Below, in pieces: positions 6,476 to 38,141 of a DNA stretch of 64,000 bases (its first letter is position 1; every line of letters starts with the position of its first letter). The stretch lies in the NCBI RefSeq assembly GCF_009931435.1, contig NZ_CP043414.1. One strand, 5' to 3'. Origin of the DNA: Escherichia coli. Its GTDB lineage: Bacteria > Pseudomonadota > Gammaproteobacteria > Enterobacterales > Enterobacteriaceae. The notes under the pieces are model-generated. The model worked only from the letters and a program-made list of their open reading frames with translations. It was not told the origin of the DNA and did no database searches. The position numbers and the translations under genes are program-made.

Positions 6476-6508
6476 CAATAAAAAACCGCAACCTGTATCA
6501 GCGTTGCG
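6476..6508 (-). terminator. Rho-independent terminator downstream of ydbA
   Basis: Perfect hairpin ccgcaacgctgatacaggttgcgg (rc of 6485-6508) followed on the minus strand by a T-run (A-run 6476-6484 on plus). A partial REP-like motif (gcgccgcatccggcaa) lies just 5' at 6455-6470. Confidence 0.7.
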
Positions 6509-6531
6509 GTTTATGCATCACATACTAAAAA

Positions 6532-9500
6532 TTAGAACGTTTTCTTGAAGTTCAGCATCACGCCTTTATCGCTGATACCATCCTCTTTCCAGTGGTAAGC
6601 ATCCAGATTCAGCGAACTTTCTTTGCTGCTGTACTTCACGCCGACGCTTGCCAGACTGTTGATGCCGCCGCCCTTCTGCCCATCATCGACATTAAAGTGC
6701 TGGCTGCCTGCGCCTGCCAGGCTTGCCGTGCGCTGGCTCTTGCTGTAGCTGAGGTTCGGCCCACCTTCCAGCGTGGCGTTCGCACTCCAGCCGTCTTTCC
6801 CTGCGTAGTCCAGCTTCAGCCCGACGATGCTGTCCACCGCCGTTTCGCTGCCGCTGTTCATGCTCAGGTTAAAGTCTCCGGCATTGCGCTCCTGATAGTC
6901 GCCTTCCAGCGTGTGACGCAGTTTCACACCCGCATATGGCGTGATTTTCAGCCCTTCGCGCGGTTCAAAGGTTTTCGCCCCTTCGCTGCGGAACTCCAGG
7001 TACTGTTGTTTCACATTCGTGTCTGCCGTCTTACTGATGTCGCCGTAAGCCACCGAACGGCTGCTGTCCAGTTGGTGAATATCGTAGCGCAGCGCGTTAT
7101 TCCAGCTCATACCGTTGTCAAAGGACATCTGATGCTTCAGGCCAAAGAACTGGCTGTAGCCGCCTGTAACACCATTATCACCCGCTTTCTGCGCACCATC
7201 GCCGTCCAGACGGGCGATACCGTACTCCAGGCTCATGGTCTGGTTTTCGCTCAGGTCGAGGGTTTTGCGCAGCGCCAGCATGTCGTACTCGGTATTATTC
7301 CCCAGCTCTGCACGCGGATCGCCTTTCGCCACCACGTTAAATGCCAGACCGTTGCCCATCTTCGGTGCTGCGTCTGCCAGCATACTAAAGCGATTGCTTA
7401 ACACACGCGCTTCGCGGAATACCGTGGTCGCCTGGCTACCGCTAATTTGCTTAAGTGCGCTGTTCAGCTCTGCAGTGGTGCCGACGTTCAGACTGGTATA
7501 CAGCTCATTGTTGGTGTAACCCGCATCCAGCGCTTTTGCCACGTCATTCACTGAGGCATCCGTCGCCACATCGGTGTAGGCTTTTTTGCTCATGGTCACG
7601 TCAACGTTGCCGCTGGCGTCGGTACTGCCTGTCGCCTGCCAGACAACAGATGTCGAAGTGATCGCTTGCGCATCGGTCAGGTTGCTGCCTTGCACCACAT
7701 CATCAAAGCTGGCGGTTTTGTCCGCCGTTCCCGCCGCAAAAGCAGTGTTGATCTCCACGCCTTTCATACTGGCGTTATTGACCATCAGCTTACCAGCGCT
7801 ACCATCGGCGTTCGTCCCCACCACGTAACCATTGAGGTTGTTCATGCCATCGTTGCGGCTAACGGAAGAAGAATGACTGTCGTCGTATGGCGTAATGGTG
7901 GGTTCTTCCGGCGCGGTAAAGTCGACATAGTGTACTTCCGTACCGTCTCCCCCTTCACCACTGCCCTCCATCACCGTGCCAGATTGTTTAATTAATCCGG
8001 AACCATTCACGCTGTCGTCAATATAAACAGTGCCGTTGTTAACAATATGACCATTGCTCCCGAGCTTGCTGAAGGCATATGAATTGCTGGCATATATATT
8101 GATGGTGCCGTTATTCTCAATCACCGCATCAGCCGTGGCATCGGATTCCAGTTGCATCCCTACCATGCCTGTCCTGGTAGTTCCTTGCGTGCCAACGTTA
8201 ATGGTGCCGTTGTTGATCATTTTGGCTTTACCGTGCGCCGACATCGCCACATTACTATTTTTGTCGATATTAATAATGCCGTCGTTTATTGCCTTGCTGG
8301 CCGTGTTTGATGTCAGGATCTGCCCGTTGATGAAGCCAGACTGGCCATTATAGAACGTATGCCCATCACCACCGGTGCTAATTCTCATGTCACCTTCTAC
8401 TGTCCCCCAATTATTAAAATGTCCTGTCCACAGCGCATTCGTCGCCACCGTTGCCACACTGCCTTCCAGATTGTTGAAGGTGCCACCTTTATCAACCGAT
8501 GCATTATTTACGGTACCAGCATTATTAAAGGTAGAGGCTGCAGCAAAAGTTATTTTCTCTACTTTTCCACCGGCCTGATTATTCATTACGGCAGACCCGG
8601 AAGAACCTTTCCAGGCGTTCACCGTTCCGGTGTTATAAAAATTGCTGGCCCACTGGTCAACCGTGTTGATGCTGCCTGAGTTGTGAATAACCGATCCTGC
8701 AACAGTCGTTCCGACTTGCCCGCTCACCGTACCTTCGTTAGTGAACACGCCGCCATCCACAGAAACAGTTTTTGTCGTGCCGTGGTTGGTGTATTCCCCA
8801 CCGGTTGCGATATCAACCTCAATAATACTGCCCGTGGTTTCATTGACCAGATGACCAAAGTCAGCCACGGTGACAGGTCCCCCGGTGACCGTACCCGTGT
8901 TTGTTACCAGGGTTTCGGCGGTTGCCGTGATATCAGTAGTACCGCCATATGAATACAGGTTAAGCGTTTCCCCGTCAGCCGAAATAATGTCACCATTTCT
9001 CCAGCTTAATGAAACAAACCCGTCAGTCGGGTTATAGGCGTTATTGTCCTGGCATTTCCCAAAAGTACAGATGGATCCGTAATTAACGATAGTCCCGCTG
9101 CCATCGTTATAGAACGCCTGCCCGTTTTCAGCATTAATATTGATGATGCCCGTCTGATCATTAATCGCAGTGGCACCATTGTAAACAGCCATGCCGACCA
9201 ATTTATTTGGCCCCAGCGTATCATCATCATTTTCATTTACTTCCAGATTTATAGTTCCCTGGTTAATAATAATGTTACCTGGCTTCATCGCAGCCATACC
9301 GGCACCGGAATTATAGAGTGTTATTTCACCACCCTGCTGGTTAATGGCGGTAGAATTAACGCTGGCACCAGAACTGTCTGTACCCACAGCCATCCCGACA
9401 GCATAATCTTTGGCGCTGTCATGAGCGATATTGGACGCCAGACTGGAAGTATCGTTTTCATCAACCCATAATGCGTCAATGAAAATCTTACCCATATTGT

Positions 9501-21614: not shown

Positions 21615-21642
21615 ATGCTCTGGATAAGGATTATCCAATTCT

Positions 21643-21680
21643 AAAAAAAAGCCCGGACGACTGTTCGGGCTTGTCTTTTT
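21643..21680. terminator. Bidirectional Rho-independent terminator (pfo on plus, micC on minus)
   Basis: Hairpin gcccggacgactgttcgggc (21651-21670) flanked by an A-run (21643-21650) and a T-rich run (21671-21680). Confidence 0.85.
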
Positions 21681-21752
21681 ATATGTTGGAAAATCAGTGG
21701 CAATGCAATGGCCCAACAGAAAATAAAATCTGTGACAATAAAGGCATATAAC
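21643..21752 (-). ncRNA. micC: MicC small regulatory RNA
   Basis: Minus-strand sequence reads GTTATATGCCTTTATTGTCACAGATTTTATTTTCTGTTGGGCCATTGCATTGCCACTGATTTTCCAACATAT...GCCCGAACAGTCGTCCGGGCTTTTTTTT, which I recognise as MicC. It lies in the pfo-ompN spacer, divergent from ompN. Confidence 0.88.
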
Positions 21753-21979
21753 TCGCGCAGAATAACGTATAGCAAATTAAAAGTATAATTTTTATTTTGT
21801 ATGTATTATCTTCGATACATTCACCAGACTTATTATCATTTCAGAGGAATTATTTGATTAAGGTTTTACTTAAGGCGTAACAAATGATATTTATCGGCTA
21901 ACTGAACTTCTCCTTTAGGATGTTTTCATTCCCCGAAATGGGGATAAAAGGCAAATAAAATAACTAAAGGATTTATTCA

Positions 21980-23172: not shown

Positions 23173-23688
<516 letters not shown>

Positions 23689-23694
23689 CACTAA

Positions 23695-23720
23695 CGCCCG
23701 CACATTGCTGCGGGCTTTTT
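23695..23720 (+). terminator. Rho-independent terminator after uspF
   Basis: Hairpin gcccgcacattgctgcgggc followed by ttttt. Confidence 0.8.
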
Positions 23721-23863
23721 GATTCATTTCGCAAATGTGCTGACATTTTCCCCTCTAATCCGTACCATACACGCCACAGTTTTTATATCAGATTTCTTAT
23801 GCTGGGCGTTCCGGCATGACGCATACTCTTCTGATGCCATATAACGAATTGAGTCGCTTTTAA

Positions 23864-24799
23864 ATGTCGCAAAATCAAGAAATTAGTAAGAAAGAACAAT
23901 ACAATCTCAACAAATTACAAAAACGTCTGCGTCGTAACGTGGGCGAAGCCATTGCTGACTTCAATATGATTGAAGAAGGCGATCGCATCATGGTTTGCCT
24001 CTCCGGGGGTAAAGACAGCTATACCATGCTGGAGATTCTGCGCAATTTGCAGCAAAGCGCGCCAATCAATTTTTCGCTGGTGGCTGTTAACCTCGATCAA
24101 AAGCAACCGGGCTTCCCGGAACACGTTCTGCCCGAGTATCTTGAAAAGCTGGGCATTGAGTACAAGATTGTGGAAGAGAACACTTACGGTATCGTGAAAG
24201 AGAAGATTCCGGAGGGCAAAACCACTTGCTCACTGTGTTCTCGTCTTCGTCGCGGAATTCTTTACCGTACCGCAACGGAACTGGGAGCGACGAAGATCGC
24301 GCTGGGTCACCATCGTGACGATATCCTGCAAACGTTGTTCTTAAATATGTTCTACGGCGGCAAGATGAAAGGTATGCCTCCGAAACTGATGAGCGATGAT
24401 GGCAAACATATTGTGATTCGTCCGCTGGCCTACTGCCGCGAGAAAGATATTCAGCGCTTTGCCGATGCAAAAGCGTTCCCGATTATTCCGTGCAACCTGT
24501 GCGGTTCACAGCCTAACCTGCAACGTCAGGTGATTGCTGACATGTTGCGTGACTGGGATAAACGTTATCCGGGGCGTATCGAGACGATGTTCAGCGCGAT
24601 GCAGAATGTGGTGCCGTCGCATCTGTGCGATACCAACCTGTTCGATTTCAAAGGCATTACCCACGGTTCTGAAGTGGTTAACGGGGGTGATCTGGCGTTT
24701 GATCGCGAAGAGATCCCTCTACAACCGGCGGGTTGGCAGCCTGAAGAAGATGAAAATCAGTTGGATGAGTTACGACTGAATGTGGTTGAAGTGAAATAA
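23864..24799 (+). CDS. ttcA: tRNA 2-thiocytidine(32) synthetase TtcA
   Basis: 311-aa ORF. PP-loop SGGKDS motif ([11 protein letters not shown]). Fe-S cluster cysteines ([16 protein letters not shown]). Confidence 0.95.
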
Positions 24800-24885
24800 C
24801 CCGGATAGCGCCCGATGCGCAAGCTTATCGGGCTACTCTTATGGAGGCCGGATAAGACGCGGCCAGCGTCGCATCCGGCAATCCC
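24800..24885. repeat. REP (repetitive extragenic palindromic) elements
   Basis: Two units with the GCCGGATAAG...GCATCCGGCA-type palindromic core (cccggatagcgcccgatgcgcaagcttatcgggc; gccggataagacgcggccagcgtcgcatccggca) between the convergent ttcA and dbpA. Confidence 0.75.
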
Positions 24886-24927
24886 GAAGAAGATGTTTAC
24901 TCTTGCACCCTGCGATTCAACATTTCA

Positions 24928-26301
24928 TTATTTTAATAACCGCACCCGGCACGTTTTTCCTTTAATCTTCCCGCCCTGTAACTGTTTCCATGCTTTATGA
25001 GCAACAGCCTGACGCACCGCGACATAGACATGCGCCGGATGCACGGCGATTTTGCCAATATCTGCGCCATCAAGCCCGATATCTCCTGTCAGCGCACCTA
25101 ATACATCACCCGGGCGCATTTTGGCTTTTTTCCCGCCATCGATACATAACGTTGCCATTTCTGCTTCCAGCGGCACAATGGAACTATTAACTGGCGGCGT
25201 TTGCCAGTTAAGTTTTATCTGCAACATGTCAGAAATGATATTGGCCCGCTGTGCTTCTTCCGGGGCACAGAAACTGATCGCCAGACCGCTATTTCCTGCA
25301 CGCGCTGTACGACCGATGCGATGTACATGAACTTCAGGGTCCCACGCCAGTTCAAAGTTCACTACCAGCTCAAGCGATTTAATATCAAGACCACGCGCAG
25401 CAACATCCGTCGCGACCAGCACACGAGCGCTACCGTTAGCAAAACGTACCAGGGTCTGATCGCGGTCACGTTGCTCCAGATCGCCATGTAACGACAATGC
25501 ACTTTGCCCTATGTCATTCAGCGCGTCGCAGACAGCCTGACAATCTTTTTTGGTATTGCAAAACACCACGCAAGAGGATGGCTGATGCAAACTTAATAAC
25601 CGTTGCAACAGCGGAATTTTGCCTTTGCTGGATGTCTCATAAAATTGTTGTTCAATGGGAGGCAGAGCATCTGTTGAGTCAATTTCAATCGCCAATGGCT
25701 CGCGTTGAACTCGTCCGCTGATTGCGGTGATGGCTTCCGGCCAGGTTGCCGAAAACAGAAGCGTCTGTCGAGATGCTGGCGCAAAACGGATAACATCATC
25801 AATGGCATCGCTAAATCCCATATCCAGCATGCGATCGGCTTCATCCATCACCAGCATATTCAACGCATCCAGTGATACCGTGCCTTTTTGCAGATGGTCC
25901 AGCAAACGACCTGGGGTTGCCACGATAATATGCGGCGCATGTTGCAACGAATCACGCTGCATACCGAACGGTTGACCACCGCACAAAGTCAAAATTTTGG
26001 TATTTGGCAGAAAACGCGCCAGCCGACGCAATTCACCTGCCACCTGATCCGCCAGTTCACGCGTAGGGCACAGCACTAAAGCCTGGGTCTGAAATAGCGA
26101 CGCATCAATTTTCTGTAGCAGCCCGAGGCCAAAAGCCGCCGTTTTGCCGCTGCCGGTTTTCGCCTGCACGCGAACATCTTTTCCGGCAAGGATCGCCGGA
26201 AGCGCGGCAGCCTGCACCGGCGTCATAGTCAAATAACCCAACTCATTAAGGTTCGTGAGTTGGGCGGGAGGCAAAACATTCAGGGTAGAAAAAGCGGTCA
26301 C
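24928..26301 (-). CDS. dbpA: ATP-dependent 23S rRNA-specific DEAD-box RNA helicase DbpA
   Basis: 457-aa ORF. Walker A (AKTGSGKT), DEAD box (LVMDEADRM), SAT motif, C-terminal RNA-binding domain. Confidence 0.96.
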   Translation of the reverse strand: MTAFSTLNVLPPAQLTNLNELGYLTMTPVQAAALPAILAGKDVRVQAKTGSGKTAAFGLGLLQKIDASLFQTQALVLCPTRELADQVAGELRRLARFLPNTKILTLCGGQPFGMQRDSLQHAPHIIVATPGRLLDHLQKGTVSLDALNMLVMDEADRMLDMGFSDAIDDVIRFAPASRQTLLFSATWPEAITAISGRVQREPLAIEIDSTDALPPIEQQFYETSSKGKIPLLQRLLSLHQPSSCVVFCNTKKDCQAVCDALNDIGQSALSLHGDLEQRDRDQTLVRFANGSARVLVATDVAARGLDIKSLELVVNFELAWDPEVHVHRIGRTARAGNSGLAISFCAPEEAQRANIISDMLQIKLNWQTPPVNSSIVPLEAEMATLCIDGGKKAKMRPGDVLGALTGDIGLDGADIGKIAVHPAHVYVAVRQAVAHKAWKQLQGGKIKGKTCRVRLLK

Positions 26302-26562
26302 AATCTGTTCTCGTGGTCATCGACGCAAAAATTAGCAAGCGCGTATCCTCGCAGATCTACGCTCACGATGCGACAATTTAATCGGTTCTTCATCGGGTGG
26401 TGGGTCAGGCATGGGTTGCGGGCGAGGGATTGGATCGGGCACTGGAACAGGATCGCCAGGAATCGGTTCAGGGACAGGAATTTGCAAATAAATGAGTGTC
26501 GTCATATTTCCCTCCGGTCATTGGGTGGACTCTTAAAGGGTAGACGCTGATATATAACAGGC

Positions 26563-26684
26563 AAAAAAAAGCCGACTCATCAAAGTCGGCGTCGTACGAA
26601 TCAATTGTGCTATGCAGTAATTCAAAAAAGGAAGTAAGACAATATGGAGCGCAACGCCCATCGCTTGACGTTGCATTCACCTGC
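26563..26684 (-). ncRNA. fnrS: FnrS small regulatory RNA (FNR-activated)
   Basis: Minus strand reads GCAGGTGAATGCAACGTCAAGCGATGGGCGTTGCGCTCCATATTGTCTTACTTCCTTTTTTGAATTACTGCATAGCACAATTGATTCGTACGACGCCGACTTTGATGAGTCGGCTTTTTTTT. Intrinsic terminator at the 3' end; lies in the dbpA-zntB spacer. Confidence 0.88.
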
Positions 26685-26719
26685 AAGAGAGATATTGCCC
26701 TGAATGGGTAGAGAGTTTA

Positions 26720-26733
26720 TTGACTTCGCTCAA
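26720..26733. promoter_or_regulatory. FNR binding site (class II position) upstream of fnrS
   Basis: TTGAC-N4-CTCAA (consensus TTGAT-N4-ATCAA), centred about 42 bp upstream of the inferred FnrS 5' end. Confidence 0.7.
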
Positions 26734-26779
26734 ACTTTGCGGCGTTTTTGTATACAGATAGTAGGGAAAATTGCTGTTG

Positions 26780-27784
<1,005 letters not shown>

Positions 27785-28017
27785 TTATTTTGTAGTCTAG
27801 CCTTCTGGCCCTGTTACGCAACATCTCATCACCCCATTACCCTGAAATGATTAATAAAATTCTGTCTAAATTGAATACAAAAAGCAAAATGCTTTTCCAT
27901 ATACAAACCGTGTGAAGTGTTAAATAGCGTCTATCATTATCAGAATTATCTGATCATATGACGTGGCTTTATTGCGATCGGATAGCAACAAAAATTGATA
28001 AAAATAACGGGATCTCA

Positions 28018-29250
28018 ATGATTACGCACAACTTCAATACCCTGGACTTACTCACCAGTCCTGTCTGGATCGTTTCGCCCTTTGAGGAACAGTTAATTTA
28101 TGCCAACAGCGCGGCGCGACTGTTGATGCAAGACCTCACGTTTAGTCAGCTACGAACCGGTCCCTATTCCGTCTCCTCACAAAAAGAACTGCCGAAATAC
28201 CTCTCCGATCTGCAAAACCAACACGATATTATCGAAATCCTCACCGTTCAACGTAAAGAAGAGGAAACAGCATTAAGCTGTCGGCTTGTTTTGCGAGAGC
28301 TGACAGAAGCAGAACCGGTGATTATTTTCGAAGGTATCGAAGCGCCGGCAACGCTGGGTTTAAAAGCCAGTCGCTCGGCAAATTATCAGCGCAAAAAACA
28401 AGGTTTTTATGCGCGCTTTTTTCTGACTAACTCTGCACCAATGTTGTTGATTGACCCCTCACGAGATGGCCAAATCGTCGATGCTAACCTCGCCGCGCTC
28501 AATTTCTATGGTTATAACCATGAAACGATGTGCCAGAAACATACCTGGGAAATTAATATGCTCGGGCGTCGCGTCATGCCTATCATGCATGAAATCTCGC
28601 ATTTACCCGGTGGTCATAAGCCTTTGAATTTTGTTCATAAACTGGCGGATGGTTCGACTCGTCATGTGCAGACCTATGCTGGGCCGATTGAAATTTATGG
28701 CGACAAGCTCATGTTATGTATTGTGCATGATATTACTGAGCAAAAACGGCTGGAGGAGCAGCTGGAACATGCTGCCCACCATGACGCGATGACCGGATTA
28801 CTGAATCGGCGCCAGTTTTATCACATTACCGAGCCAGGCCAAATGCAGCACCTCGCCATCGCTCAGGATTACAGCTTATTGCTCATCGACACCGATCGTT
28901 TTAAACACATTAACGATCTCTATGGGCATTCTAAAGGTGATGAGGTGTTATGCGCCCTCGCCCGCACTCTCGAAAGTTGCGCTCGCAAAGGCGATTTGGT
29001 GTTTCGTTGGGGAGGCGAAGAGTTTGTCTTATTGCTACCAAGAACCCCACTGGATACCGCGCTTGCGCTGGCTGAAACTATCCGCGTAAGCGTGGCAAAA
29101 GTGAGTATTTCGGGCTTACCACGCTTTACCGTCAGCATTGGTGTGGCGCATCACGAAGGAAATGAAAGCATCGATGAACTGTTTAAACGCGTTGATGATG
29201 CTTTGTATCGGGCGAAAAATGATGGACGCAACCGCGTGCTGGCGGCATAA
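28018..29250 (+). CDS. dgcM: Diguanylate cyclase DgcM (tandem PAS - GGDEF)
   Basis: 410 aa from MITHNFNTLDLL. GGDEF-domain active site present as RWGGEEF. The track ORF is extended 20 codons upstream. Confidence 0.93.
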   Translation: MITHNFNTLDLLTSPVWIVSPFEEQLIYANSAARLLMQDLTFSQLRTGPYSVSSQKELPKYLSDLQNQHDIIEILTVQRKEEETALSCRLVLRELTEAEPVIIFEGIEAPATLGLKASRSANYQRKKQGFYARFFLTNSAPMLLIDPSRDGQIVDANLAALNFYGYNHETMCQKHTWEINMLGRRVMPIMHEISHLPGGHKPLNFVHKLADGSTRHVQTYAGPIEIYGDKLMLCIVHDITEQKRLEEQLEHAAHHDAMTGLLNRRQFYHITEPGQMQHLAIAQDYSLLLIDTDRFKHINDLYGHSKGDEVLCALARTLESCARKGDLVFRWGGEEFVLLLPRTPLDTALALAETIRVSVAKVSISGLPRFTVSIGVAHHEGNESIDELFKRVDDALYRAKNDGRNRVLAA

Positions 29251-29270
29251 GCCGCGGATGCGTCTCGAGA

Positions 29271-29834
29271 TCAACGACTGCGCTTAGCGTGGCGCTCCCA
29301 GTTTTCTTGCTTTGCCTGCGCCGTTTTACGTAGTGCGACGTAACACGCCCCGCTGCCGCCATGATGCGGTAGCGCGGTACAATATGCCTGGACATCATCA
29401 AATTCGGTCAACCAGCGCGCCACATAGCTGCGGACAATATTGGCATGCGATTTATCTTCCCGCCCTTTACCATGAATAATCAGCACATTACGCAAACCAT
29501 CCGCCAGGGCTTGTTGAATGAAACTGAACACCATTTTGCGGCACTCTTCCACCGGCTGGCGCAAAAGATTCAGGCTCGCCTGTTGCGGATATTTACCACT
29601 GCGCAGCTTATCCAGCACCCCATGTTGCAACCCTTCCCGCCGAAACTCCAGCGGCTGGCTTAGCGGGATGATGTCGAGAAATCCGGTGGTGAGGAAATTA
29701 TCAAGTTGCAGCGTGTCGATACGCTGCGGCGCACGTTGGTTACGCGTTGGATGCCAGTGGACATCTGTAGCACGTTTCAGCGGCTGGACATCTTCCATGG
29801 CGTCAAGAAACAGCGATTTGTCGTCAAGGTTCAT
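29271..29834 (-). CDS. smrA: Smr-domain DNA endonuclease SmrA
   Basis: 187-aa ORF with C-terminal Smr domain (LIIHGKGRE...). Synteny between dgcM and abgR. Confidence 0.88.
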   Translation of the reverse strand: MNLDDKSLFLDAMEDVQPLKRATDVHWHPTRNQRAPQRIDTLQLDNFLTTGFLDIIPLSQPLEFRREGLQHGVLDKLRSGKYPQQASLNLLRQPVEECRKMVFSFIQQALADGLRNVLIIHGKGREDKSHANIVRSYVARWLTEFDDVQAYCTALPHHGGSGACYVALRKTAQAKQENWERHAKRSR

Positions 29835-30061
29835 GTTACATCCTCCCGCAATTAAGAGCGCGATATGATAACCAGACCGGGTCGGTCCAACAACGTATTA
29901 CCCAAAATTCCAGTAATAAGTTCCAAATATTGCCGATATTTTAAGCAAAATGCTTATGCATGATTATTCATTCACGATGTTAATAATGTAACTTATATTT
30001 TCGTGAAATCTGTCACTGAAGAAAATTGGCAACTAAAGGTTAAAACCGTTATAACACAGTC

Positions 30062-30157
30062 ACCGGCGCAGAGGAGACCATGCCGGATTTAAGACGCGGA
30101 TGCACTGCTGTGTGTACTGTAGAGTCTGGCGGATGTCGACAGACTCTATTTTTTTAT
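30062..30157 (+). ncRNA. mcaS: McaS small regulatory RNA
   Basis: ACCGGCGCAGAGGAGAC...GGATGCACTGCTGTGTGTACTGTAGAGTCTGGCGGATGTCGACAGACTCTATTTTTTTAT, with terminal hairpin plus T-run. Located in the smrA-abgR spacer. Exact ends approximate. Confidence 0.8.
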
Positions 30158-30163
30158 GCAGTT

Positions 30164-31072
30164 TTAACTTTGCAGATAGCCGCTTTCTCGCCGAAATTGC
30201 GTGATTAATGACGCGGTCAGTGGTGTCTGGCGACTATCACGCCGCTGAATCAAATAATAGGCCGCTTTCGGTAAAATTTCGCTAACCGGCAACATCACCA
30301 GCCCCTGTCCGTGCAAGGGATCGCAGCCCATTTCTTCAGGTAGTATGCTGAGAAAATCGCTTTTTGCCACCAGACTGATACAGGCTGAAAACGTCTCGCA
30401 GACTACGCCGACCTGTGGCGTTTGCGCCTGATCGTCAAGCAATTCACTCAACTGTTTGTAGTAGCTGCCGTGTGGCGTCGGCATTGTCCAGCTGTAGTCC
30501 AGTAACTGTTTGATCGAACGGGCACCAATGGCGGGATGTCCTGGGCGGCAAAAGATCGCGAATTGCTTTTCCAGTAATTTCTCAAAAGTAAATTCGTGGT
30601 CGTAGGGTCCCTGATAATAGGTATTGATGGTGAAATCCAGTTCTCCCTGGCGCAATTCATTAATCATCGACACCAGTTGCCCTTCCATAATGCGTACTTT
30701 TACCTGCGGATGCTGCTGATGAAAACGAGATATGACAGCTGGCATCAGACTGCGGGAAATACTGGCCCCCATGCCGATATTAATTTGCCCTGCCAGTTGC
30801 CCTTGTCGTTGGCGAATATCCTCTTGCGCTGCGCGCAGCTCTTCAAGAATAAGACTGGCGTGCTGATAAAAACTTTCACCGGCATCAGTTAACGTCACGC
30901 CTTTACTACGGCGAAAAAAGAGTTGCGCCGCTAACCCTTCTTCCAGCTCCTGAATAGATTTACTCAGTGCCGGTTGCGACATATTCAACATTCGGCTCGC
31001 TCCGCGAATGCTGCCCTGACGAGCCACTTCAACAAAAGCCCGAATTTGATGAATTTTTACCTGAAAAGCCAT
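30164..31072 (-). CDS. abgR: LysR-family transcriptional regulator AbgR
   Basis: 302-aa ORF. N-terminal HTH (IRAFVEVARQGSIRGASRMLNMSQPALSKSIQELEEGL). Divergent from abgA. Confidence 0.94.
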   Translation of the reverse strand: MAFQVKIHQIRAFVEVARQGSIRGASRMLNMSQPALSKSIQELEEGLAAQLFFRRSKGVTLTDAGESFYQHASLILEELRAAQEDIRQRQGQLAGQINIGMGASISRSLMPAVISRFHQQHPQVKVRIMEGQLVSMINELRQGELDFTINTYYQGPYDHEFTFEKLLEKQFAIFCRPGHPAIGARSIKQLLDYSWTMPTPHGSYYKQLSELLDDQAQTPQVGVVCETFSACISLVAKSDFLSILPEEMGCDPLHGQGLVMLPVSEILPKAAYYLIQRRDSRQTPLTASLITQFRRESGYLQS

Positions 31073-31247
31073 GACGCCACCGATAACCGTTATTTATCAG
31101 ACCAAAGAAACTGGCATCTACTTTAATGCAGATGATTGTGTCAGGGTAATTTATGAACGGTTAAAACTGTGAAAAATCAGTTAGTGATAAGTAAAAACTA
31201 TCACTACGTGAACCGGGTCACATTTTTTACTGATGACGGGAAAGGTT

Positions 31248-32558
31248 ATGGAGTCTTTGAATCAATTTGTTAATTCGCTTGCCCCAAGATTATCGCACTG
31301 GCGACGTGATTTTCATCGCTATGCAGAGTCTGGCTGGGTGGAATTCCGCACAGCCACCCTTGTTGCAGAAGAATTGCACCAGCTCGGCTATTCACTGGCG
31401 CTGGGCCGCGAAGTCGTTAATGAAAGTAGTCGGATGGGACTACCTGATGAATTCACTCTACAGCGCGAATTCGAGCGCGCTCTTCAACAAGGTGCGTTAG
31501 CACAATGGATTGCGGCTTTTGAAGGTGGTTTCACTGGCATCGTCGCCACCCTGGATACCGGTCGCCCCGGTCCGGTGATGGCTTTCCGTGTCGATATGGA
31601 CGCGCTGGATCTCAGTGAAGAACGGGATGTCAGCCATCGCCCCTACCGCGACGGTTTTGCGTCATGTAACGCCGGAATGATGCATGCCTGTGGTCATGAT
31701 GGACATACCGCTATTGGGCTTGGGCTGGCGCACACCCTTAAACAGTTCGAGTCCGGACTACATGGCATCATCAAACTGATTTTTCAGCCTGCAGAGGAAG
31801 GTACGCGTGGCGCGCGGGCGATGGTCGATGCAGGTGTAGTGGATGATGTTGATTATTTTACTGCCGTGCACATTGGCACTGGCGTACCTGCGGGCACCGT
31901 GGTGTGCGGCAGTGATAATTTTATGGCAACAACCAAATTTGACGCGTACTTCACCGGGACCGCCGCTCACGCAGGCGCAAAACCAGAAGATGGTCACAAT
32001 GCCTTGTTGGCGGCAGCACAAGCAACTCTTGCACTGCATGCAATCGCCCCGCACAGCGAAGGCGCTTCCAGAGTAAACGTGGGCGTTATGCAGGCAGGAA
32101 GCGGTCGTAATGTGGTTCCCGCCTCAGCGTTGCTGAAAGTGGAAACACGCGGGGCCAGCGACGTCATTAATCAATATGTTTTTGACCGTGCACAACAAGC
32201 GATTCAGGGCGCAGCAGCCATGTATGGTGTCGGCGTTGAAACTCGGCTGATGGGTGCAGCTACCGCCAGTTCTCCTTCGCCGCAATGGGTCGCATGGTTA
32301 CAAAGCCAGGCGGCTCAGGTCGCGGGGGTCAATCAGGCCATTGAACGTGTTGAAGCGCCTGCGGGTTCCGAAGATGCCACATTAATGATGGCCCGCGTGC
32401 AGCGACATCAAGGGCAAGCCTCCTACATGGTATTTGGCACACAGCTGGCGGCAGGTCATCACAACGAAAAATTCGATTTTGACGAGCAGGTTCTCGCTAT
32501 TGCCGTCGAAACGCTGGCGCGCACCGCGCTCAATTTTCCCTGGACGCGAGGTATCTGA
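31248..32558 (+). CDS. abgA: p-Aminobenzoyl-glutamate hydrolase subunit A (M20 peptidase family)
   Basis: 436 aa from MESLNQFVNSLAPRL. M20 metal-binding His/Asp/Glu residues. Stop overlaps the abgB start (TGATG). Confidence 0.94.
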   Translation: MESLNQFVNSLAPRLSHWRRDFHRYAESGWVEFRTATLVAEELHQLGYSLALGREVVNESSRMGLPDEFTLQREFERALQQGALAQWIAAFEGGFTGIVATLDTGRPGPVMAFRVDMDALDLSEERDVSHRPYRDGFASCNAGMMHACGHDGHTAIGLGLAHTLKQFESGLHGIIKLIFQPAEEGTRGARAMVDAGVVDDVDYFTAVHIGTGVPAGTVVCGSDNFMATTKFDAYFTGTAAHAGAKPEDGHNALLAAAQATLALHAIAPHSEGASRVNVGVMQAGSGRNVVPASALLKVETRGASDVINQYVFDRAQQAIQGAAAMYGVGVETRLMGAATASSPSPQWVAWLQSQAAQVAGVNQAIERVEAPAGSEDATLMMARVQRHQGQASYMVFGTQLAAGHHNEKFDFDEQVLAIAVETLARTALNFPWTRGI

Positions 32559-34003
32559 TGCAGGAAATCTATCGTTTTATCGACGATGCGATTGAAGCCG
32601 ATCGCCAACGTTATACCGATATTGCTGATCAAATCTGGGATCATCCAGAAACACGTTTTGAAGAGTTCTGGTCAGCGGAACATCTGGCTTCGGCGCTGGA
32701 ATCTGCAGGCTTCACCGTGACTCGCAACGTAGGCAATATCCCAAATGCCTTTATTGCTTCGTTTGGTCAAGACAAACCGGTTATCGCCTTGCTGGGGGAA
32801 TATGACGCCCTGGCAGGTTTAAGTCAGCAAGCAGGTTGCGCGCAGCCTACATCCACGACGCCCGGTGAAAATGGTCACGGTTGCGGACACAATTTGCTCG
32901 GAACCGCCGCCTTTGCCGCAGCAATAGCCGTCAAGAAATGGCTGGAACAATATGGGCAAGGCGGCACGGTGCGCTTTTATGGTTGTCCTGGCGAAGAAGG
33001 CGGCTCGGGTAAAACGTTCATGGTCCGCGAGGGGGTATTTGATGATGTGGATGCGGCACTCACCTGGCACCCGGAAGCCTTTGCCGGTATGTTCAATACC
33101 CGCACGCTGGCAAATATTCAAGCATCATGGCGCTTTAAAGGGATCGCAGCACATGCTGCAAATTCCCCTCATTTGGGACGCAGCGCCCTTGATGCCGTAA
33201 CGTTGATGACCACTGGCACCAACTTCCTCAACGAACATATTATTGAAAAAGCGCGCGTACACTATGCCATCACAGAGAGCGGCGGGATCTCGCCCAACGT
33301 GGTCCAGGCGCAGGCAGAAGTGCTTTATCTTATCCGCGCCCCCGAAATGACCGACGTGCAGCATATTTATGATCGGGTAGCCAAAATCGCCGAAGGTGCG
33401 GCATTGATGACCGAAACCACGGTTGAATGCCGCTTCGACAAAGCCTGTTCCAGTTATCTCCCTAATCGCACCTTAGAAAAGGCCATGTACCAGGCTCTGT
33501 CCCATTTTGGAACCCCTGAATGGAAATCCGAAGAACTGGCTTTTGCGAAACAAATTCAGGCTACGCTCACCCCCAACGATCGGCAAAACAGTCTGAATAA
33601 TATCGCCGCAACCGGTGGAGAAAACGGCAAGGCTTTTGCAATACGTCATCGTGAAACGGTACTGGCGAATGAAGTCGCTCCATATGCCGCCACCGATAAC
33701 GTGCTTGCGGCATCGACTGATGTCGGCGACGTCAGTTGGAAACTGCCTGTTGCCCAGTGTTTCAGCCCCTGTTTCGCCGTCGGTACACCGCTACATACGT
33801 GGCAACTGGTTAGCCAGGGGCGAACGTCTATTGCTCATAAAGGAATGCTGCTGGCGGCGAAAACTATGGCAGCAACCACACTCAATCTCTTCACTGTTTC
33901 AGGGCTATTGCAAGAATGCCAACAAGAGCATCAGCAAGTTACGGACACGCAACCGTATCACTGCCCTATTCCGAAAAACGTGACACCGTCACCTTTAAAA
34001 TAA
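32558..34003 (+). CDS. abgB: p-Aminobenzoyl-glutamate hydrolase subunit B (M20 peptidase family)
   Basis: 481-aa ORF, MQEIYRFIDDAIEADRQRY..., M20 family. Confidence 0.94.
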   Translation: MQEIYRFIDDAIEADRQRYTDIADQIWDHPETRFEEFWSAEHLASALESAGFTVTRNVGNIPNAFIASFGQDKPVIALLGEYDALAGLSQQAGCAQPTSTTPGENGHGCGHNLLGTAAFAAAIAVKKWLEQYGQGGTVRFYGCPGEEGGSGKTFMVREGVFDDVDAALTWHPEAFAGMFNTRTLANIQASWRFKGIAAHAANSPHLGRSALDAVTLMTTGTNFLNEHIIEKARVHYAITESGGISPNVVQAQAEVLYLIRAPEMTDVQHIYDRVAKIAEGAALMTETTVECRFDKACSSYLPNRTLEKAMYQALSHFGTPEWKSEELAFAKQIQATLTPNDRQNSLNNIAATGGENGKAFAIRHRETVLANEVAPYAATDNVLAASTDVGDVSWKLPVAQCFSPCFAVGTPLHTWQLVSQGRTSIAHKGMLLAAKTMAATTLNLFTVSGLLQECQQEHQQVTDTQPYHCPIPKNVTPSPLK

Positions 34004-34039
34004 CAACAACAACGCAAACACAACAATCGAGGAATGCCC

Positions 34040-35566
34040 ATGAGTATGTCATCCATACCGTCGTCCTCCCAATCCGGGAAGCTCTATGGCTGGGTCGAAA
34101 GAATTGGTAACAAGGTTCCCCATCCTTTTTTGCTCTTTATCTATTTGATTATCGTACTCATGGTGACGACGGCAATTTTGTCGGCCTTTGGCGTCAGTGC
34201 GAAAAACCCGACCGATGGTACGCCAGTGGTCGTGAAAAACCTGCTCAGTGTGGAAGGATTACACTGGTTTTTACCCAATGTTATTAAAAACTTTAGCGGT
34301 TTTGCTCCACTTGGCGCGATCCTGGCGCTGGTTTTAGGTGCCGGTCTGGCGGAGCGCGTCGGCTTACTGCCAGCGTTGATGGTTAAAATGGCATCGCATG
34401 TGAATGCTCGCTACGCCAGTTATATGGCGCTGTTTATTGCTTTTTTCAGCCACATTTCTTCCGATGCGGCGTTAGTGATCATGCCACCGATGGGTGCGCT
34501 GATTTTTCTGGCGGTGGGCAGGCATCCAGTTGCAGGCTTACTGGCCGCCATTGCAGGCGTAGGTTGCGGCTTTACGGCTAATTTACTGATTGTCACAACC
34601 GACGTGTTGCTGTCGGGGATCAGCACGGAGGCTGCGGCTGCGTTCAATCCGCAAATGCACGTCAGTGTAATTGATAACTGGTATTTTATGGCCAGCTCCG
34701 TAGTCGTACTGACGATTGTTGGCGGCCTGATAACCGACAAAATCATTGAGCCGCGGTTAGGTCAATGGCAGGGAAATTGCGATGAGAAACTGCAAACCTT
34801 GACCGAAAGTCAGCGTTTTGGTTTACGCATATCAGGTGTCGTATCGCTACTTTTTATTGCCGCAATTGCGCTGATGGTGATCCCGGAAAATGGGATATTG
34901 CGCGATCCGATTAATCACACCGTGATGCCATCCCCCTTTATTAAAGGTATCGTGCCACTGATCATTCTCTTTTTCTTTGTGGTTTCGCTGGCTTATGGCA
35001 TCGCTACCCGCACAATTCGACGTCAGGCGGATTTACCGCATTTAATGATTGAACCGATGAAAGAGATGGCGGGATTTATCGTGATGGTTTTTCCCCTGGC
35101 CCAGTTTGTCGCCATGTTTAACTGGAGCAACATGGGGAAATTCATCGCGGTGGGGCTGACCGATATACTCGAAAGTTCAGGGCTTAGCGGCATCCCGGCG
35201 TTTGTCGGTCTGGCGTTGCTTTCCTCTTTCTTATGCATGTTTATCGCCAGCGGTTCCGCAATCTGGTCGATTCTGGCCCCCATTTTCGTACCAATGTTTA
35301 TGCTACTTGGCTTTCACCCGGCATTTGCGCAAATCCTCTTTCGTATTGCCGACTCATCCGTATTGCCTTTAGCGCCGGTATCTCCTTTTGTTCCACTGTT
35401 TCTTGGATTCCTGCAACGCTACAAACCTGACGCGAAACTGGGTACTTACTATTCGTTAGTTTTGCCCTATCCACTTTTCTTTTTGGTGGTATGGCTGCTG
35501 ATGTTGCTGGCGTGGTATCTTGTCGGTCTGCCGATAGGTCCGGGGATTTACCCTCGTTTGTCTTAA
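34040..35566 (+). CDS. abgT: p-Aminobenzoyl-glutamate transporter AbgT
   Basis: About 508-aa polytopic membrane protein. Start taken at the ATG encoding MSMSSIPSS; an in-frame ATG two codons upstream (34034) is the alternative. Confidence 0.92.
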
Positions 35567-35576
35567 GAGAGAACGG

Positions 35577-36092
35577 ATGCTGAGATTACTTGAAGAAAAA
35601 ATTGCCACGCCACTAGGTCCACTGTGGGTGATTTGCGATGAGCAATTTCACTTGCGGGCGGTTGAATGGGAAGAGTACAGCGAACGCATGGTGCAGCTGC
35701 TGGACATCCATTACCGCAAAGAAGGCTATGAGCGCATTTCTGCCACCAACCCAGGTGGTTTAAGCGACAAGCTTCGTGAATATTTTGCCGGTAATCTTAG
35801 CATTATTGATACGCTTCCCACTGCCACGGGGGGGACGCCATTTCAGCGCGAAGTCTGGAAAACATTACGCACAATCCCCTGCGGGCAGGTAATGCATTAC
35901 GGCCAACTGGCTGAACAATTGGGCCGCCCCGGCGCGGCGCGTGCCGTAGGTGCGGCAAATGGATCGAATCCCATCAGCATTGTTGTGCCTTGTCATCGGG
36001 TCATTGGCAGAAACGGTACCATGACCGGATATGCAGGCGGAGTTCAGCGAAAAGAGTGGTTATTACGCCACGAAGGTTATCTTTTGCTGTAA
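35577..36092 (+). CDS. ogt: O6-alkylguanine-DNA alkyltransferase
   Basis: 171-aa ORF with active-site PCHRV motif ([13 protein letters not shown]). Confidence 0.96.
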
Positions 36093-36253
36093 ACATTAAA
36101 CAATTTGTGCCAGCTTGTTCACACTTTTATGTAAAGTTACCCTTAATAACTTAAGGGTTTTCAAATAGATAGACATATATTTACATCTAATATCGGAATT
36201 CTCTGCTGTTAAGGTTTGCTTAGACTTACTTGCTCCCTAAAAAGATGTTAAAA

Positions 36254-36267
36254 TTGACAAATATCAA
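36254..36267. promoter_or_regulatory. FNR box in the fnr promoter (autoregulation)
   Basis: TTGACAAATATCAA, a near-perfect TTGAT-N4-ATCAA palindrome 20 bp upstream of the fnr ATG. Confidence 0.75.
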
Positions 36268-36286
36268 TTACGGCTTGAGCAGACCT

Positions 36287-37039
36287 ATGATCCCGGAAAA
36301 GCGAATTATACGGCGCATTCAGTCTGGCGGTTGTGCTATCCATTGCCAGGATTGCAGCATCAGCCAGCTTTGCATCCCGTTCACACTCAACGAACATGAG
36401 CTTGATCAGCTTGATAATATCATTGAGCGAAAGAAGCCTATTCAGAAAGGCCAGACGCTGTTTAAGGCTGGTGATGAACTTAAATCGCTTTATGCCATCC
36501 GCTCCGGTACGATTAAAAGTTATACCATTACTGAGCAAGGCGACGAGCAAATCACTGGTTTCCATTTAGCTGGTGACCTGGTGGGATTTGATGCAATCGG
36601 CAGCGGTCATCACCCGAGCTTCGCGCAGGCGCTGGAAACCTCGATGGTATGTGAAATTCCGTTCGAAACGCTGGACGATTTGTCCGGTAAAATGCCGAAT
36701 CTGCGTCAGCAGATGATGCGTCTGATGAGCGGTGAAATCAAAGGCGATCAGGACATGATCCTGCTGTTGTCGAAGAAAAATGCCGAGGAGCGTCTGGCTG
36801 CATTCATCTACAACCTGTCCCGTCGTTTTGCCCAACGCGGCTTCTCCCCTCGTGAATTCCGCCTGACGATGACTCGTGGCGATATCGGTAACTATCTGGG
36901 CCTGACGGTAGAAACCATCAGCCGTCTGCTGGGTCGCTTCCAGAAAAGCGGCATGCTTGCAGTCAAAGGTAAATACATCACCATCGAAAATAACGATGCG
37001 CTGGCCCAGCTTGCTGGTCACACGCGTAACGTTGCCTGA
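36287..37039 (+). CDS. fnr: Global anaerobic regulator FNR (CRP/FNR family)
   Basis: 250 aa from [29 protein letters not shown] (Fe-S cluster cysteines), C-terminal HTH. The track ORF is extended upstream. Confidence 0.97.
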
Positions 37040-37190
37040 TTCTTCCGCATAACTCACTATCCTTCTGTCATATCATTAAATTTTTCTGATTTATTGATCT
37101 GACAGAAGGTTCATCACTGTTTCATTCACCAGATATGGGTTAATCTTTTAATTACAAACTGCGTTGACAGTTGTTGTAAGGAGACCCTGT

Positions 37191-38141
37191 ATGGCTATGT
37201 ATCAGAACATGCTCGTTGTTATCGATCCCAACCAGGACGACCAACCAGCATTGCGGCGAGCTGTTTATTTACATCAACGGATTGGTGGCAAAATTAAAGC
37301 CTTTTTGCCGATCTATGACTTCTCATACGAAATGACCACCCTGCTCTCCCCGGACGAACGTACCGCTATGCGTCAGGGCGTCATCAGCCAGCGAACAGCC
37401 TGGATCCACGAGCAGGCAAAATATTATCTCAATGCTGGCGTTCCCATTGAAATTAAAGTGGTCTGGCATAACCGTCCATTCGAAGCCATCATTCAGGAAG
37501 TGATCAGCGGCGGACACGATTTGGTGCTAAAAATGGCGCACCAACATGACCGTCTGGAAGCGGTGATTTTTACGCCAACGGACTGGCATCTGTTACGCAA
37601 ATGCCCAAGCCCGGTGTGGATGGTGAAAGACCAGCCGTGGCCGGAAGGGGGTAAGGCGCTGGTGGCGGTGAATCTCGCCAGTGAAGAGCCGTACCATAAT
37701 GCGCTCAATGAAAAACTGGTTAAAGAGACGATCGAACTGGCGGAACAAGTTAATCATACCGAAGTTCATCTGGTAGGCGCTTATCCGGTAACGCCAATTA
37801 ATATCGCGATTGAACTGCCGGAATTTGACCCGAGCGTTTATAACGATGCCATTCGTGGGCAACATTTGCTGGCTATGAAAGCCCTGCGGCAGAAATTCGG
37901 CATTAATGAAAACATGACGCACGTAGAAAAAGGTCTACCAGAAGAGGTGATTCCTGATTTGGCGGAGCACTTACAGGCGGGGATTGTGGTTCTGGGCACG
38001 GTCGGACGCACCGGTATTTCAGCAGCATTCCTTGGCAACACGGCGGAACAGGTGATTGATCATCTTCGCTGCGACCTGCTGGTCATTAAACCTGACCAGT
38101 ATCAGACACCCGTTGAACTGGATGACGAAGAAGACGATTAA
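37191..38141 (+). CDS. uspE: Universal stress protein E (tandem Usp domains)
   Basis: 316 aa from [27 protein letters not shown] at 37191 preceded by SD aaggag. Confidence 0.94.

What the first reader, a model, noticed from the sequence alone, without database searches (positions are those of the whole stretch)
26563..26733. FnrS sRNA with upstream FNR box in the dbpA-zntB spacer
The minus strand carries a sequence I recognise as FnrS, ending in a strong intrinsic terminator. A TTGAC-N4-CTCAA site is centred about 42 bp upstream of its 5' end, the class II FNR activation position. The FNR protein gene is itself about 10 kb away in the same window, with its own autoregulatory box (36254-36267).
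Basis: partly seen in the sequence, partly recalled or inferred. Interest (0 to 1): 0.25.

Follow-up and report, generated by a model that had tools for sequence, protein, structure and literature searches.

The report
FnrS small RNA, already known

Summary
The finding is confirmed and is already known. Window 26563-26684 (minus strand) matches Rfam RF01796 (FnrS) over the full model at 134.8 bits, against a gathering score of 60 (E = 4e-24). It is 122/122 identical to the annotated fnrS gene (b4699) of E. coli K-12 MG1655, and the promoter is identical back to about -75. An FNR box, TTGAG-CGAA-GTCAA (26720-26733), is centred at -42.5 from the 5' end. That is the position published from FNR ChIP-seq for this promoter. 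An 8-bp terminator hairpin followed by eight U ends the RNA. In 113 FnrS loci from other Enterobacterales, an FNR-type box sits at the same place in every one. The spacer between box and -10 region varies freely, and the hairpins show compensatory base changes. There are two small corrections. The site centre is -42.5. The small-protein gene ynaL lies between fnrS and dbpA, so the spacer is strictly zntB-ynaL. Reading it as a small-protein gene or as a processed zntB 3'UTR is rejected. Novelty: already known. Interest: low.

The parts
26563..26684 (-). FnrS small RNA, 122 nt; +1 = G26684, 3' end after the U8 tail
   Evidence: Rfam RF01796 at 134.8 bits, full length. 122/122 identical to MG1655 fnrS b4699. 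Published mutant numbering (G4, G5, C47-U49, U57-U59) fits +1 = G26684.
26720..26733 (-). FNR binding site TTGAG-CGAA-GTCAA, centred at -42.5 (class II position)
   Evidence: [quoted passage not shown] An FNR-type box at the same position in 113 of 113 Enterobacterales FnrS loci.
26692..26697 (-). Candidate -10 hexamer CAATAT (-13 to -8). The -35 equivalent, AATAAA, is poor.
   Evidence: The A at -12 and the T at -8 are among the best-conserved promoter positions. No consensus sigma-70 promoter was found in the region, as expected for an activator-dependent promoter. The assignment of the hexamer is inferred.
26676..26684 (-). 5' end, nt 1-9 GCAGGUGAA: invariant pairing region
   Evidence: Invariant in 107 sequences, and these columns were not fixed by the search pattern. 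Forms 8 contiguous pairs with sodB +12..+21 at -13.3 kcal/mol; 2 and 5 of 2000 shuffles were as good. The published fnrS-III mutant changes G4 and G5.
26647..26678 (-). Stem-loop 1 (nt 7-38)
   Evidence: Rfam consensus structure, MFE fold, 91.6% of cells paired with 2 pairs showing changes on both sides. Parts of these columns were fixed by the retrieval pattern.
26624..26646 (-). Single-stranded C/U-rich region (nt 39-61): main target-pairing and likely Hfq-contact region
   Evidence: Unpaired in the Rfam and MFE structures and highly conserved. The published fnrS-I and fnrS-II mutants lie here. Complementary to the sodB SD/AUG region, but with weak specificity.
26598..26623 (-). Stem-loop 2 (nt 62-87)
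   Evidence: 96-98% of cells paired, and 5 of 9 pairs show changes on both sides.
26563..26590 (-). Rho-independent terminator: 8-bp stem (26571-26590) plus U8 tail (26563-26570)
   Evidence: 5 of 8 stem pairs show compensatory changes across genera.
26780..27763 (-). zntB, upstream neighbour on the same strand (context)
   Evidence: NCBIfam NF007092 at 645.9 bits; annotation.
26332..26505 (-). ynaL, a 57-aa proline-rich small protein between fnrS and dbpA (context)
   Evidence: Annotation. Expression by epitope tagging reported in PMC6001520.
24928..26301 (-). dbpA (context)
   Evidence: NCBIfam NF008744 at 767.2 bits.
36287..37039 (+). fnr, encoding the activator of the FnrS promoter
   Evidence: NCBIfam NF008365 at 529.9 bits.
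36254..36267 (+). FNR box TTGACAAATATCAA at the fnr promoter (negative autoregulation)
   Evidence: PMC3688515 Table 1 lists fnr as directly FNR-repressed with a site at -0.5.

Best explanation
Window 26563-26684 (minus strand) is the fnrS gene. It encodes the 122-nt Hfq-dependent small RNA FnrS of E. coli. When oxygen is absent, the [4Fe-4S] form of FNR (encoded 9.6 kb away at 36287-37039) binds as a dimer to TTGAG-CGAA-GTCAA, centred at -42.5. This site overlaps the weak -35 region, and FNR recruits RNA polymerase there by the class II activation mechanism. Transcription starts at G26684 and stops at the hairpin plus U8 terminator. The RNA has two unstructured and highly conserved regions: the 5' end (nt 1-9) and the C/U-rich stretch (nt 39-61). 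With Hfq, these pair with the translation-initiation regions of mRNAs that are not needed anaerobically, such as sodB, sodA, gpmA, maeA, folE, folX, cydDC, yobA and iscR. Pairing blocks ribosome binding and lowers mRNA levels. FnrS thereby extends the FNR regulon to genes that FNR represses only indirectly. Shown here: the identity, the ends, the structure, the FNR box and its conservation, and the complementarity to sodB. Taken from the literature for the identical K-12 sequence: FNR occupancy, anaerobic induction, Hfq dependence and the target list. Inferred: that this strain behaves the same way.
For: Rfam RF01796 at 134.8 bits against a gathering score of 60, full length. 122/122 identity to MG1655 fnrS, and an identical promoter to about -75. 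Present once per genome in 5392 of 5426 complete E. coli genomes, at >=99% identity in 5015 of them. FNR box centred at -42.5. FNR ChIP-seq peak with a -42.5 site at fnrS, and 11 operons indirectly FNR-repressed through FnrS (PMC3688515). Among 113 FnrS loci from other genera, the exact TTGA-N6-TCAA core is at -42.5 in 79 and at -41.5 in 3, and the other 31 carry 1-2 mismatch variants at the same place. The -35 to -17 spacer is variable while the box and the -10 region are conserved. Structure: 93.1% of cells paired against 31-41% when partners are slid, and 12 pairs with changes on both sides against 3.9 in shuffles, 0 of 500 reaching the observed value. Terminator. FnrS nt 1-9 form 8 contiguous pairs with sodB +12..+21; 2 and 5 of 2000 shuffles were as good. 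Anaerobic expression by northern blot, Hfq-enhanced pairing and iscR repression are reported in PMC11572966. The seed mutants are numbered consistently with this 5' end (PMC8595263).
Against: Nothing contradicts it. Limits: no expression data exist for this strain. The single-sequence fold is not unusually stable (z = -1.67; 14 of 200 shuffles fold as well). The outer 4-bp helix (nt 1-4 with 43-46) never varies, so it is neither supported nor refuted. The comparative set was retrieved with a pattern that fixed 18 bases within nt 15-40, which biases conservation in those columns. The two primary papers (Durand & Storz 2010; Boysen et al. 2010) are not in the held library and were read only through citing papers.
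Confidence: 0.98

Rival explanations
1. FnrS is not an independent gene. It would be a processed 3'UTR fragment of the zntB mRNA, which ends 96 bp upstream on the same strand.
For: zntB lies immediately upstream on the same strand in most genera, ending 71-139 bp before the RNA. No terminator-like hairpin with a T-run was found between the zntB stop codon and FnrS on that strand.
Against: A conserved FNR box and -10 region lie at a fixed distance from the 5' end in 113 of 113 loci. In the Rahnella/Rouxiella group (L051, L076, L080, L110, L121), FnrS is inverted relative to zntB and still keeps its FNR box. FNR ChIP-seq peak at the promoter.
Confidence: 0.01
2. The transcript is a small-protein mRNA or a dual-function RNA. 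An ATG at nt 9 opens a reading frame, listed as a 47-aa ORF at 26533-26676.
For: An ATG-initiated ORF is listed. The first 11 or so codons are conserved in many genera, although this overlaps the conserved stem-loop.
Against: In E. coli the frame has no stop codon before the RNA's 3' end. Across 107 sequences, 58 have stops at scattered positions (codons 1 to 33), 49 have none before the 3' end, and the ATG is absent in Arsenophonus and Photorhabdus. Indels in the U-rich region are not multiples of three. There is no Shine-Dalgarno sequence within the 8-nt leader.
Confidence: 0.01
3. The TTGA-N6-TCAA site is a chance match, and the promoter is controlled by something other than FNR.
For: With 2 mismatches allowed, the FNR consensus is frequent: 58 matches in 64 kb against 40 expected. 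The strict core count of 3 is not significantly above the 1.5 expected, and 17 of 100 shuffles had at least 3 matches.
Against: The position is fixed at -42.5 or -41.5 across over 100 species while the adjacent spacer diverges. In vivo FNR occupancy is published for the identical sequence. There is no usable -35 element.
Confidence: 0.01

Closest known systems
FnrS (Rfam RF01796; E. coli K-12 fnrS, b4699)
   Same: Everything tested: 122/122 sequence identity, the same promoter, the same FNR box at -42.5, the same terminator and the same zntB-fnrS-ynaL-dbpA context.
   Different: Nothing within the RNA or the core promoter. There are five substitutions upstream of -75 and two downstream of the terminator relative to MG1655. 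The gene is not annotated in the closest PGAP record.
Class II FNR-activated promoters (for example narG, dmsA, nirB, ydhY)
   Same: A single FNR site at -41.5 +/- 1 overlapping a poor -35 region. The distance from box centre to the start of the -10 hexamer is 29.5 bp, the same as in a canonical -41.5 promoter whose hexamer starts at -12.
   Different: The innermost base of each half-site departs from TTGAT-N4-ATCAA (TTGAG and GTCAA). The product is a regulatory RNA rather than an mRNA.
Other regulon-extending Hfq sRNAs driven by one global regulator (RyhB/Fur, OxyS/OxyR, ArcZ/ArcA)
   Same: The same logic: a transcription factor switches on an sRNA that represses many mRNAs after transcription. 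Targets shared with RyhB include sodB, sodA, marA and the isc operon.
   Different: A different signal (absence of oxygen, sensed by FNR) and unrelated sequences.

Membership tests
FnrS sRNA (Rfam RF01796) | Covariance-model score at or above the curated gathering score, full length | tested here: met
   134.8 bits against 60, E = 4.4e-24, model positions 1-119 of 119.
FnrS sRNA (Rfam RF01796) | Sequence identity to the experimentally characterised E. coli K-12 fnrS, with the same 5' and 3' ends | tested here: met
   122/122 identical to b4699. Published mutant numbering fits +1 = G26684.
FnrS sRNA (Rfam RF01796) | Two internal stem-loops plus a terminator hairpin, supported by covariation | tested here: met
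   93.1% of cells paired against 31-41% for slid controls. 12 pairs with changes on both sides, 0 of 500 shuffles as high. The outer 4-bp helix is invariant, so it is uninformative.
FnrS sRNA (Rfam RF01796) | Conserved locus next to zntB (ydaN) | tested here: met
   zntB ends 96 bp upstream of the RNA. zntB is adjacent to FnrS in nearly every locus from other genera that has enough flank.
FnrS sRNA (Rfam RF01796) | Anaerobic, FNR-dependent accumulation of a transcript of about 122 nt | not testable with these tools
   Reported for the identical K-12 sequence (PMC11572966; PMC3688515). No expression data for this strain.
FnrS sRNA (Rfam RF01796) | Hfq-dependent base pairing with target mRNAs through the 5' end and the nt 47-59 region | tested here: inconclusive
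   Complementarity of nt 1-9 to sodB +12..+21 is better than nearly all shuffles (2 and 5 of 2000 as good). Complementarity of nt 39-59 to the sodB SD is weakly specific (30 and 138 of 2000 as good). Hfq binding cannot be tested here. A U8 tail and a U-rich internal stretch are present.
Class II FNR-activated promoter | FNR consensus-like inverted repeat (TTGAT-N4-ATCAA) centred near -41.5 | tested here: met
   TTGAG-CGAA-GTCAA, 12 of 14 positions including the full TTGA...TCAA core, centred at -42.5. PMC3688515 counts -41.5 +/- 4 as class II.
Class II FNR-activated promoter | Weak or absent -35 hexamer, so that the promoter depends on the activator | tested here: met
   No sigma-70 consensus promoter found in 26300-26900. 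The -35 equivalent AATAAA matches 2 of 6.
Class II FNR-activated promoter | FNR occupancy in vivo | not testable with these tools
   A ChIP-seq peak is published for the identical MG1655 promoter (PMC3688515 Table 1).
Class II FNR-activated promoter | Conservation of the site and its spacing in orthologous promoters | tested here: met
   113 of 113 loci carry a box at -42.5 or -41.5 with a variable downstream spacer.

The most novel reading that the evidence does not exclude
In Escherichia and its close relatives, partial read-through of the FnrS terminator would place ynaL, and perhaps dbpA, under FNR control. The ynaL start codon lies 57 nt downstream on the same strand. FnrS would then also act as an anaerobically induced leader for a small protein and a DEAD-box helicase. 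The evidence does not exclude this: the consensus scan found no sigma-70-type promoter between the terminator and ynaL, and all the genes are co-oriented. It is unlikely, however. The terminator is strong (8-bp stem, 5 G-C pairs, U8). The scan is strict and would miss weak or extended -10 promoters. In most genera ynaL and dbpA are not downstream of FnrS at all.
Probability: 0.06. Interest if true: 0.3.

Novelty: already known. Interest (0 to 1): 0.05.

Why it matters
As a discovery it matters little. FnrS was described in 2010, is in Rfam and EcoCyc, and this copy is identical to the K-12 gene. The practical value is for annotation. The closest RefSeq/PGAP record, and the other E. coli records sampled, carry no feature at this position, so an automated scan would see an 'empty' 274-bp spacer that in fact holds a functional regulator. 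The comparative result is a clean textbook example of a phylogenetic footprint and confirms the published mechanism independently of experiments. An FNR-type box is fixed at -42.5 or -41.5 in more than 100 Enterobacterales species, and it is retained where the cassette is inverted.

Tried and rejected
(1) The primary papers (PMC2941437, PMC2856277, PMID 20070527) are not held, so citing papers were used instead. (2) The sigma-70 consensus scan found no promoter. This is expected for a class II promoter and is not evidence against one. (3) Single-sequence folding gives z = -1.67, which is not significant. Stability alone would not have identified the RNA. (4) A whole-length RNAduplex of FnrS against the sodB TIR gave -53.6 kcal/mol, but this ignores intramolecular structure and was discarded. 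Only the two unstructured segments were evaluated. (5) The small-ORF reading was rejected. (6) The zntB-3'UTR reading was rejected. (7) The third TTGA-N6-TCAA core, at 3836-3849, lies inside the ydbD coding sequence and was treated as chance. (8) The + strand 'terminator-like' hairpin at 26695-26711, inside the promoter spacer, has no convergent gene to terminate and lies in the poorly conserved spacer. It was treated as chance. (9) An ungapped comparison of the window with strain 2013C-4282 failed. The two are out of register at the start of the window, presumably because of an indel. Gene coordinates agree from 23864 to 38141 wherever they were compared. (10) Six of the 120 scan hits were chance matches in unrelated phyla, and one locus (L094) yielded no usable sequence. 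All were excluded.

Full report
OBSERVATION. On the minus strand, the Rfam scan of the whole window gives a full-length match to RF01796 (frnS, 'Fumarate/nitrate reductase regulator sRNA') at 26567-26684. The score is 134.8 bits against a gathering score of 60, with E = 4.4e-24 and model positions 1-119 of 119. Reading the sequence directly, the RNA begins GCAGGUGAAUGCAACG at G26684. It ends in the hairpin GCCGACUU-UGAU-GAGUCGGC followed by eight U, which takes the 3' end to 26563. The terminator scan finds this hairpin independently: 8 pairs, 5 of them G-C, with a 4-nt loop at 26590..26571 and then T8.

IDENTITY. The window is E. coli. A 501-bp query around the element matches 5392 of 5426 complete E. 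coli genomes, once per genome. MG1655 annotates fnrS (b4699) as a 122-nt ncRNA at 1409129-1409250, between zntB and ynaL. Alignment shows that the window's 122 nt are identical to it. The upstream region is identical back to about -75. Five substitutions lie further upstream and two lie downstream of the terminator. The 178 bp that contain the RNA and its FNR box are at least 99% identical in 5015 of 5392 genomes. The published FnrS point mutants (G4C/G5U; C47A/U48A/U49G; U57A/U58G/U59A; PMC8595263) match the bases at those positions when G26684 is numbered +1. This supports the 5' end.

PROMOTER. On the RNA strand the box reads TTGAG-CGAA-GTCAA at 26733..26720. Its centre falls between 26727 and 26726, which is -42.5. 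It keeps the full TTGA...TCAA core and departs from TTGAT-N4-ATCAA only at the innermost base of each half-site. The motif alone is weak evidence. With 2 mismatches allowed there are 58 matches in 64 kb against 40 expected. The strict core occurs 3 times against 1.5 expected. The position is what is informative. Myers et al. 2013 (PMC3688515, Table 1) report an FNR ChIP-seq peak upstream of fnrS with one FNR site at -42.5. They class sites at -41.5 +/- 4 as class II. The consensus sigma-70 scan finds no promoter in the region. The -35 equivalent is AATAAA, and the best -10 candidate is CAATAT at -13 to -8. The distance from the box centre to the start of the -10 hexamer is 29.5 bp, the same as in a canonical -41.5 promoter whose hexamer starts at -12. 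This last step is my inference.

COMPARATIVE TEST. Of these, 113 are true FnrS loci, beginning GCAGGTGAA and carrying at least 60 bp of upstream flank. They come from Yersinia, Serratia, Pantoea, Erwinia, Edwardsiella, Dickeya, Pectobacterium, Photorhabdus, Arsenophonus, Rahnella and others. Six were chance hits in unrelated phyla, and one locus gave no usable sequence. An exact TTGA-N6-TCAA core lies at -42.5 in 79 loci and at -41.5 in 3. The other 31 have close variants at the same place: CTGATC-N3-ATCAA in Erwiniaceae and TTGCGC-N3-ATCAA in some others. Column conservation is high over the box and over -16 to -1, and low over -35 to -17. This pattern is a classical footprint of two functional elements separated by a neutral spacer. 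One caveat applies. The retrieval pattern fixed 18 bases within nt 15-40 of the RNA, so invariance in those columns is by construction. The promoter, nt 1-14 and nt 41-122 were not constrained.

STRUCTURE. I counted the Rfam consensus structure, mapped onto an alignment of 107 distinct sequences. It gives 93.1% standard pairs, against 31-41% when partners are slid by 1-3 columns. Twelve pairs show changes on both sides, against 3.9 in shuffles, and 0 of 500 shuffles reached the observed value. Covariation is concentrated in the terminator (5 of 8 pairs) and in stem-loop 2 (5 of 9 pairs). The outer 4-bp helix (nt 1-4 with 43-46) never varies, so it is uninformative. Its 5' arm lies in a published target-pairing region, and that may be the real reason it is conserved. 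The single-sequence fold is not unusually stable (z = -1.67).

MECHANISM. The regions that are both unstructured and most conserved are nt 1-9 and nt 39-61. These are the regions hit by the published seed mutants. As a plausibility check, I tested FnrS nt 1-9 against the MG1655 sodB region -60 to +30. They form 8 contiguous pairs with +12..+21 at -13.3 kcal/mol. Only 2 of 2000 shuffled targets and 5 of 2000 shuffled seeds did as well. The C/U-rich region pairs with the sodB Shine-Dalgarno/AUG region at -13.5 kcal/mol, but with weak specificity: 30 and 138 of 2000 shuffles did as well. Literature on the identical K-12 RNA supplies the rest. FnrS is under FNR control and is expressed on the switch to anaerobiosis. 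It represses multiple genes that are not needed then. Hfq improves its pairing. It represses iscR by blocking translation (PMC11572966). Eleven operons that are FNR-repressed but lack an FNR peak are explained by FnrS, including gpmA, cydDC, chaA, adhP, sodB, yobA and dld (PMC3688515 Table 5). From memory, not from a paper read here: Durand & Storz 2010 and Boysen et al. 2010 are the primary descriptions, and they also reported minor ArcA and CRP effects.

zntB (26780-27763, minus strand; NF007092, 645.9 bits) ends 96 bp upstream of the RNA. dbpA (24928-26301, minus strand; NF008744, 767.2 bits) is downstream. Between FnrS and dbpA lies ynaL (26332-26505), which encodes a 57-aa proline-rich small protein whose expression was shown by epitope tagging. 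The spacer is therefore strictly zntB-ynaL. fnr is at 36287-37039 (+) (NF008365, 529.9 bits). TTGACAAATATCAA at 36254-36267 lies 20-33 bp upstream of its ATG.

RIVALS. (a) A processed zntB 3'UTR. Against this stand the conserved promoter and the Rahnella/Rouxiella loci, where FnrS is inverted relative to zntB yet keeps its FNR box. (b) A small-protein gene starting at the ATG at nt 9. The frame has no stop before the 3' end in E. coli, stops are scattered in 58 of 107 sequences, and the ATG is missing in Arsenophonus and Photorhabdus. (c) A chance FNR box. This is excluded by the positional conservation and the published ChIP signal.

VERDICT. The feature is already known. The only additions from this work are comparative, and they are listed under Noticed in passing: the ancestral zntB-fnrS-ttcA context, the lineage-specific dbpA/ynaL downstream, the inverted cassette in the Rahnella group, and the lack of annotation in PGAP records. 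Interest is low, at 0.05.

Noticed in passing
window 21635-21755 (-) and 30062-30157 (+): Two more known sRNAs lie in the window: MicC (RF00121, 125.1 bits) and McaS/IsrA (RF00115, 117 bits). Like fnrS, neither is annotated in the PGAP record NZ_CP027579.1, whose gene coordinates match the window's.
   Followed up: partly
window 23254-24799 (ttcA, then uspF/ompN): This strain has no Rac prophage. ttcA is followed directly by uspF, ompN, micC and nifJ. In MG1655 the cryptic prophage Rac begins within the 5' end of ttcA.
   Followed up: partly
window 44009-46051 (+): A 680-aa ORF lies between tpx and tyrR. Local G+C is about 0.45, and it has no Pfam or PADLOC match. It is annotated only as 'hypothetical protein' in the matching record. 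From memory, tpx and tyrR are adjacent in K-12, so this looks like an inserted gene of unknown function.
   Followed up: partly
L051, L076, L080, L110, L121 (Rahnella/Rouxiella group): The FnrS cassette is inverted relative to zntB: zntB is downstream on the opposite strand and ttcA is upstream. The cassette still carries an FNR-type box at -42.5. The promoter and the RNA therefore behave as one unit.
   Followed up: partly
loci L003-L122 versus window 24928-26505: dbpA is found downstream of fnrS mainly in Escherichia, Citrobacter, Salmonella and Enterobacter-like genomes, and ynaL in only some of those. In Yersinia, Serratia, Pantoea, Edwardsiella, Dickeya and others, ttcA lies immediately downstream and convergent. 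The ancestral context looks like zntB-fnrS-ttcA.
   Followed up: partly
Erwiniaceae loci such as L016, L023, L026, L031, L036, L046: The upstream half-site of the FNR box is CTGAT instead of TTGAG. This gives CTGATC-N3-ATCAA, which is closer to the consensus in the inner positions but has lost the first T. It appears to be a lineage-wide variant.
   Followed up: no
window 26506-26562 (-): The consensus scan found no sigma-70-type promoter between the FnrS terminator and the ynaL start codon, a gap of 57 nt. Where ynaL-dbpA transcription starts is not evident from the sequence. See the section on the most novel reading.
   Followed up: no
window 6487-12024 (-): A 5.5-kb autotransporter gene is annotated as a single ORF here. 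From memory, the K-12 counterpart (ydbA) is interrupted by insertion sequences. This was not checked.
   Followed up: no
window 3836-3849: The third exact TTGA-N6-TCAA core in the window (TTGAAACGTGTCAA) lies inside the ydbD coding sequence. It was treated as chance.
   Followed up: partly
window 27777-27824 (-): A 15-codon ORF, ynaN, lies just upstream of zntB. The PGAP record labels the gene 'ydaN' but names the product YnaN. It may be a leader peptide.
   Followed up: no
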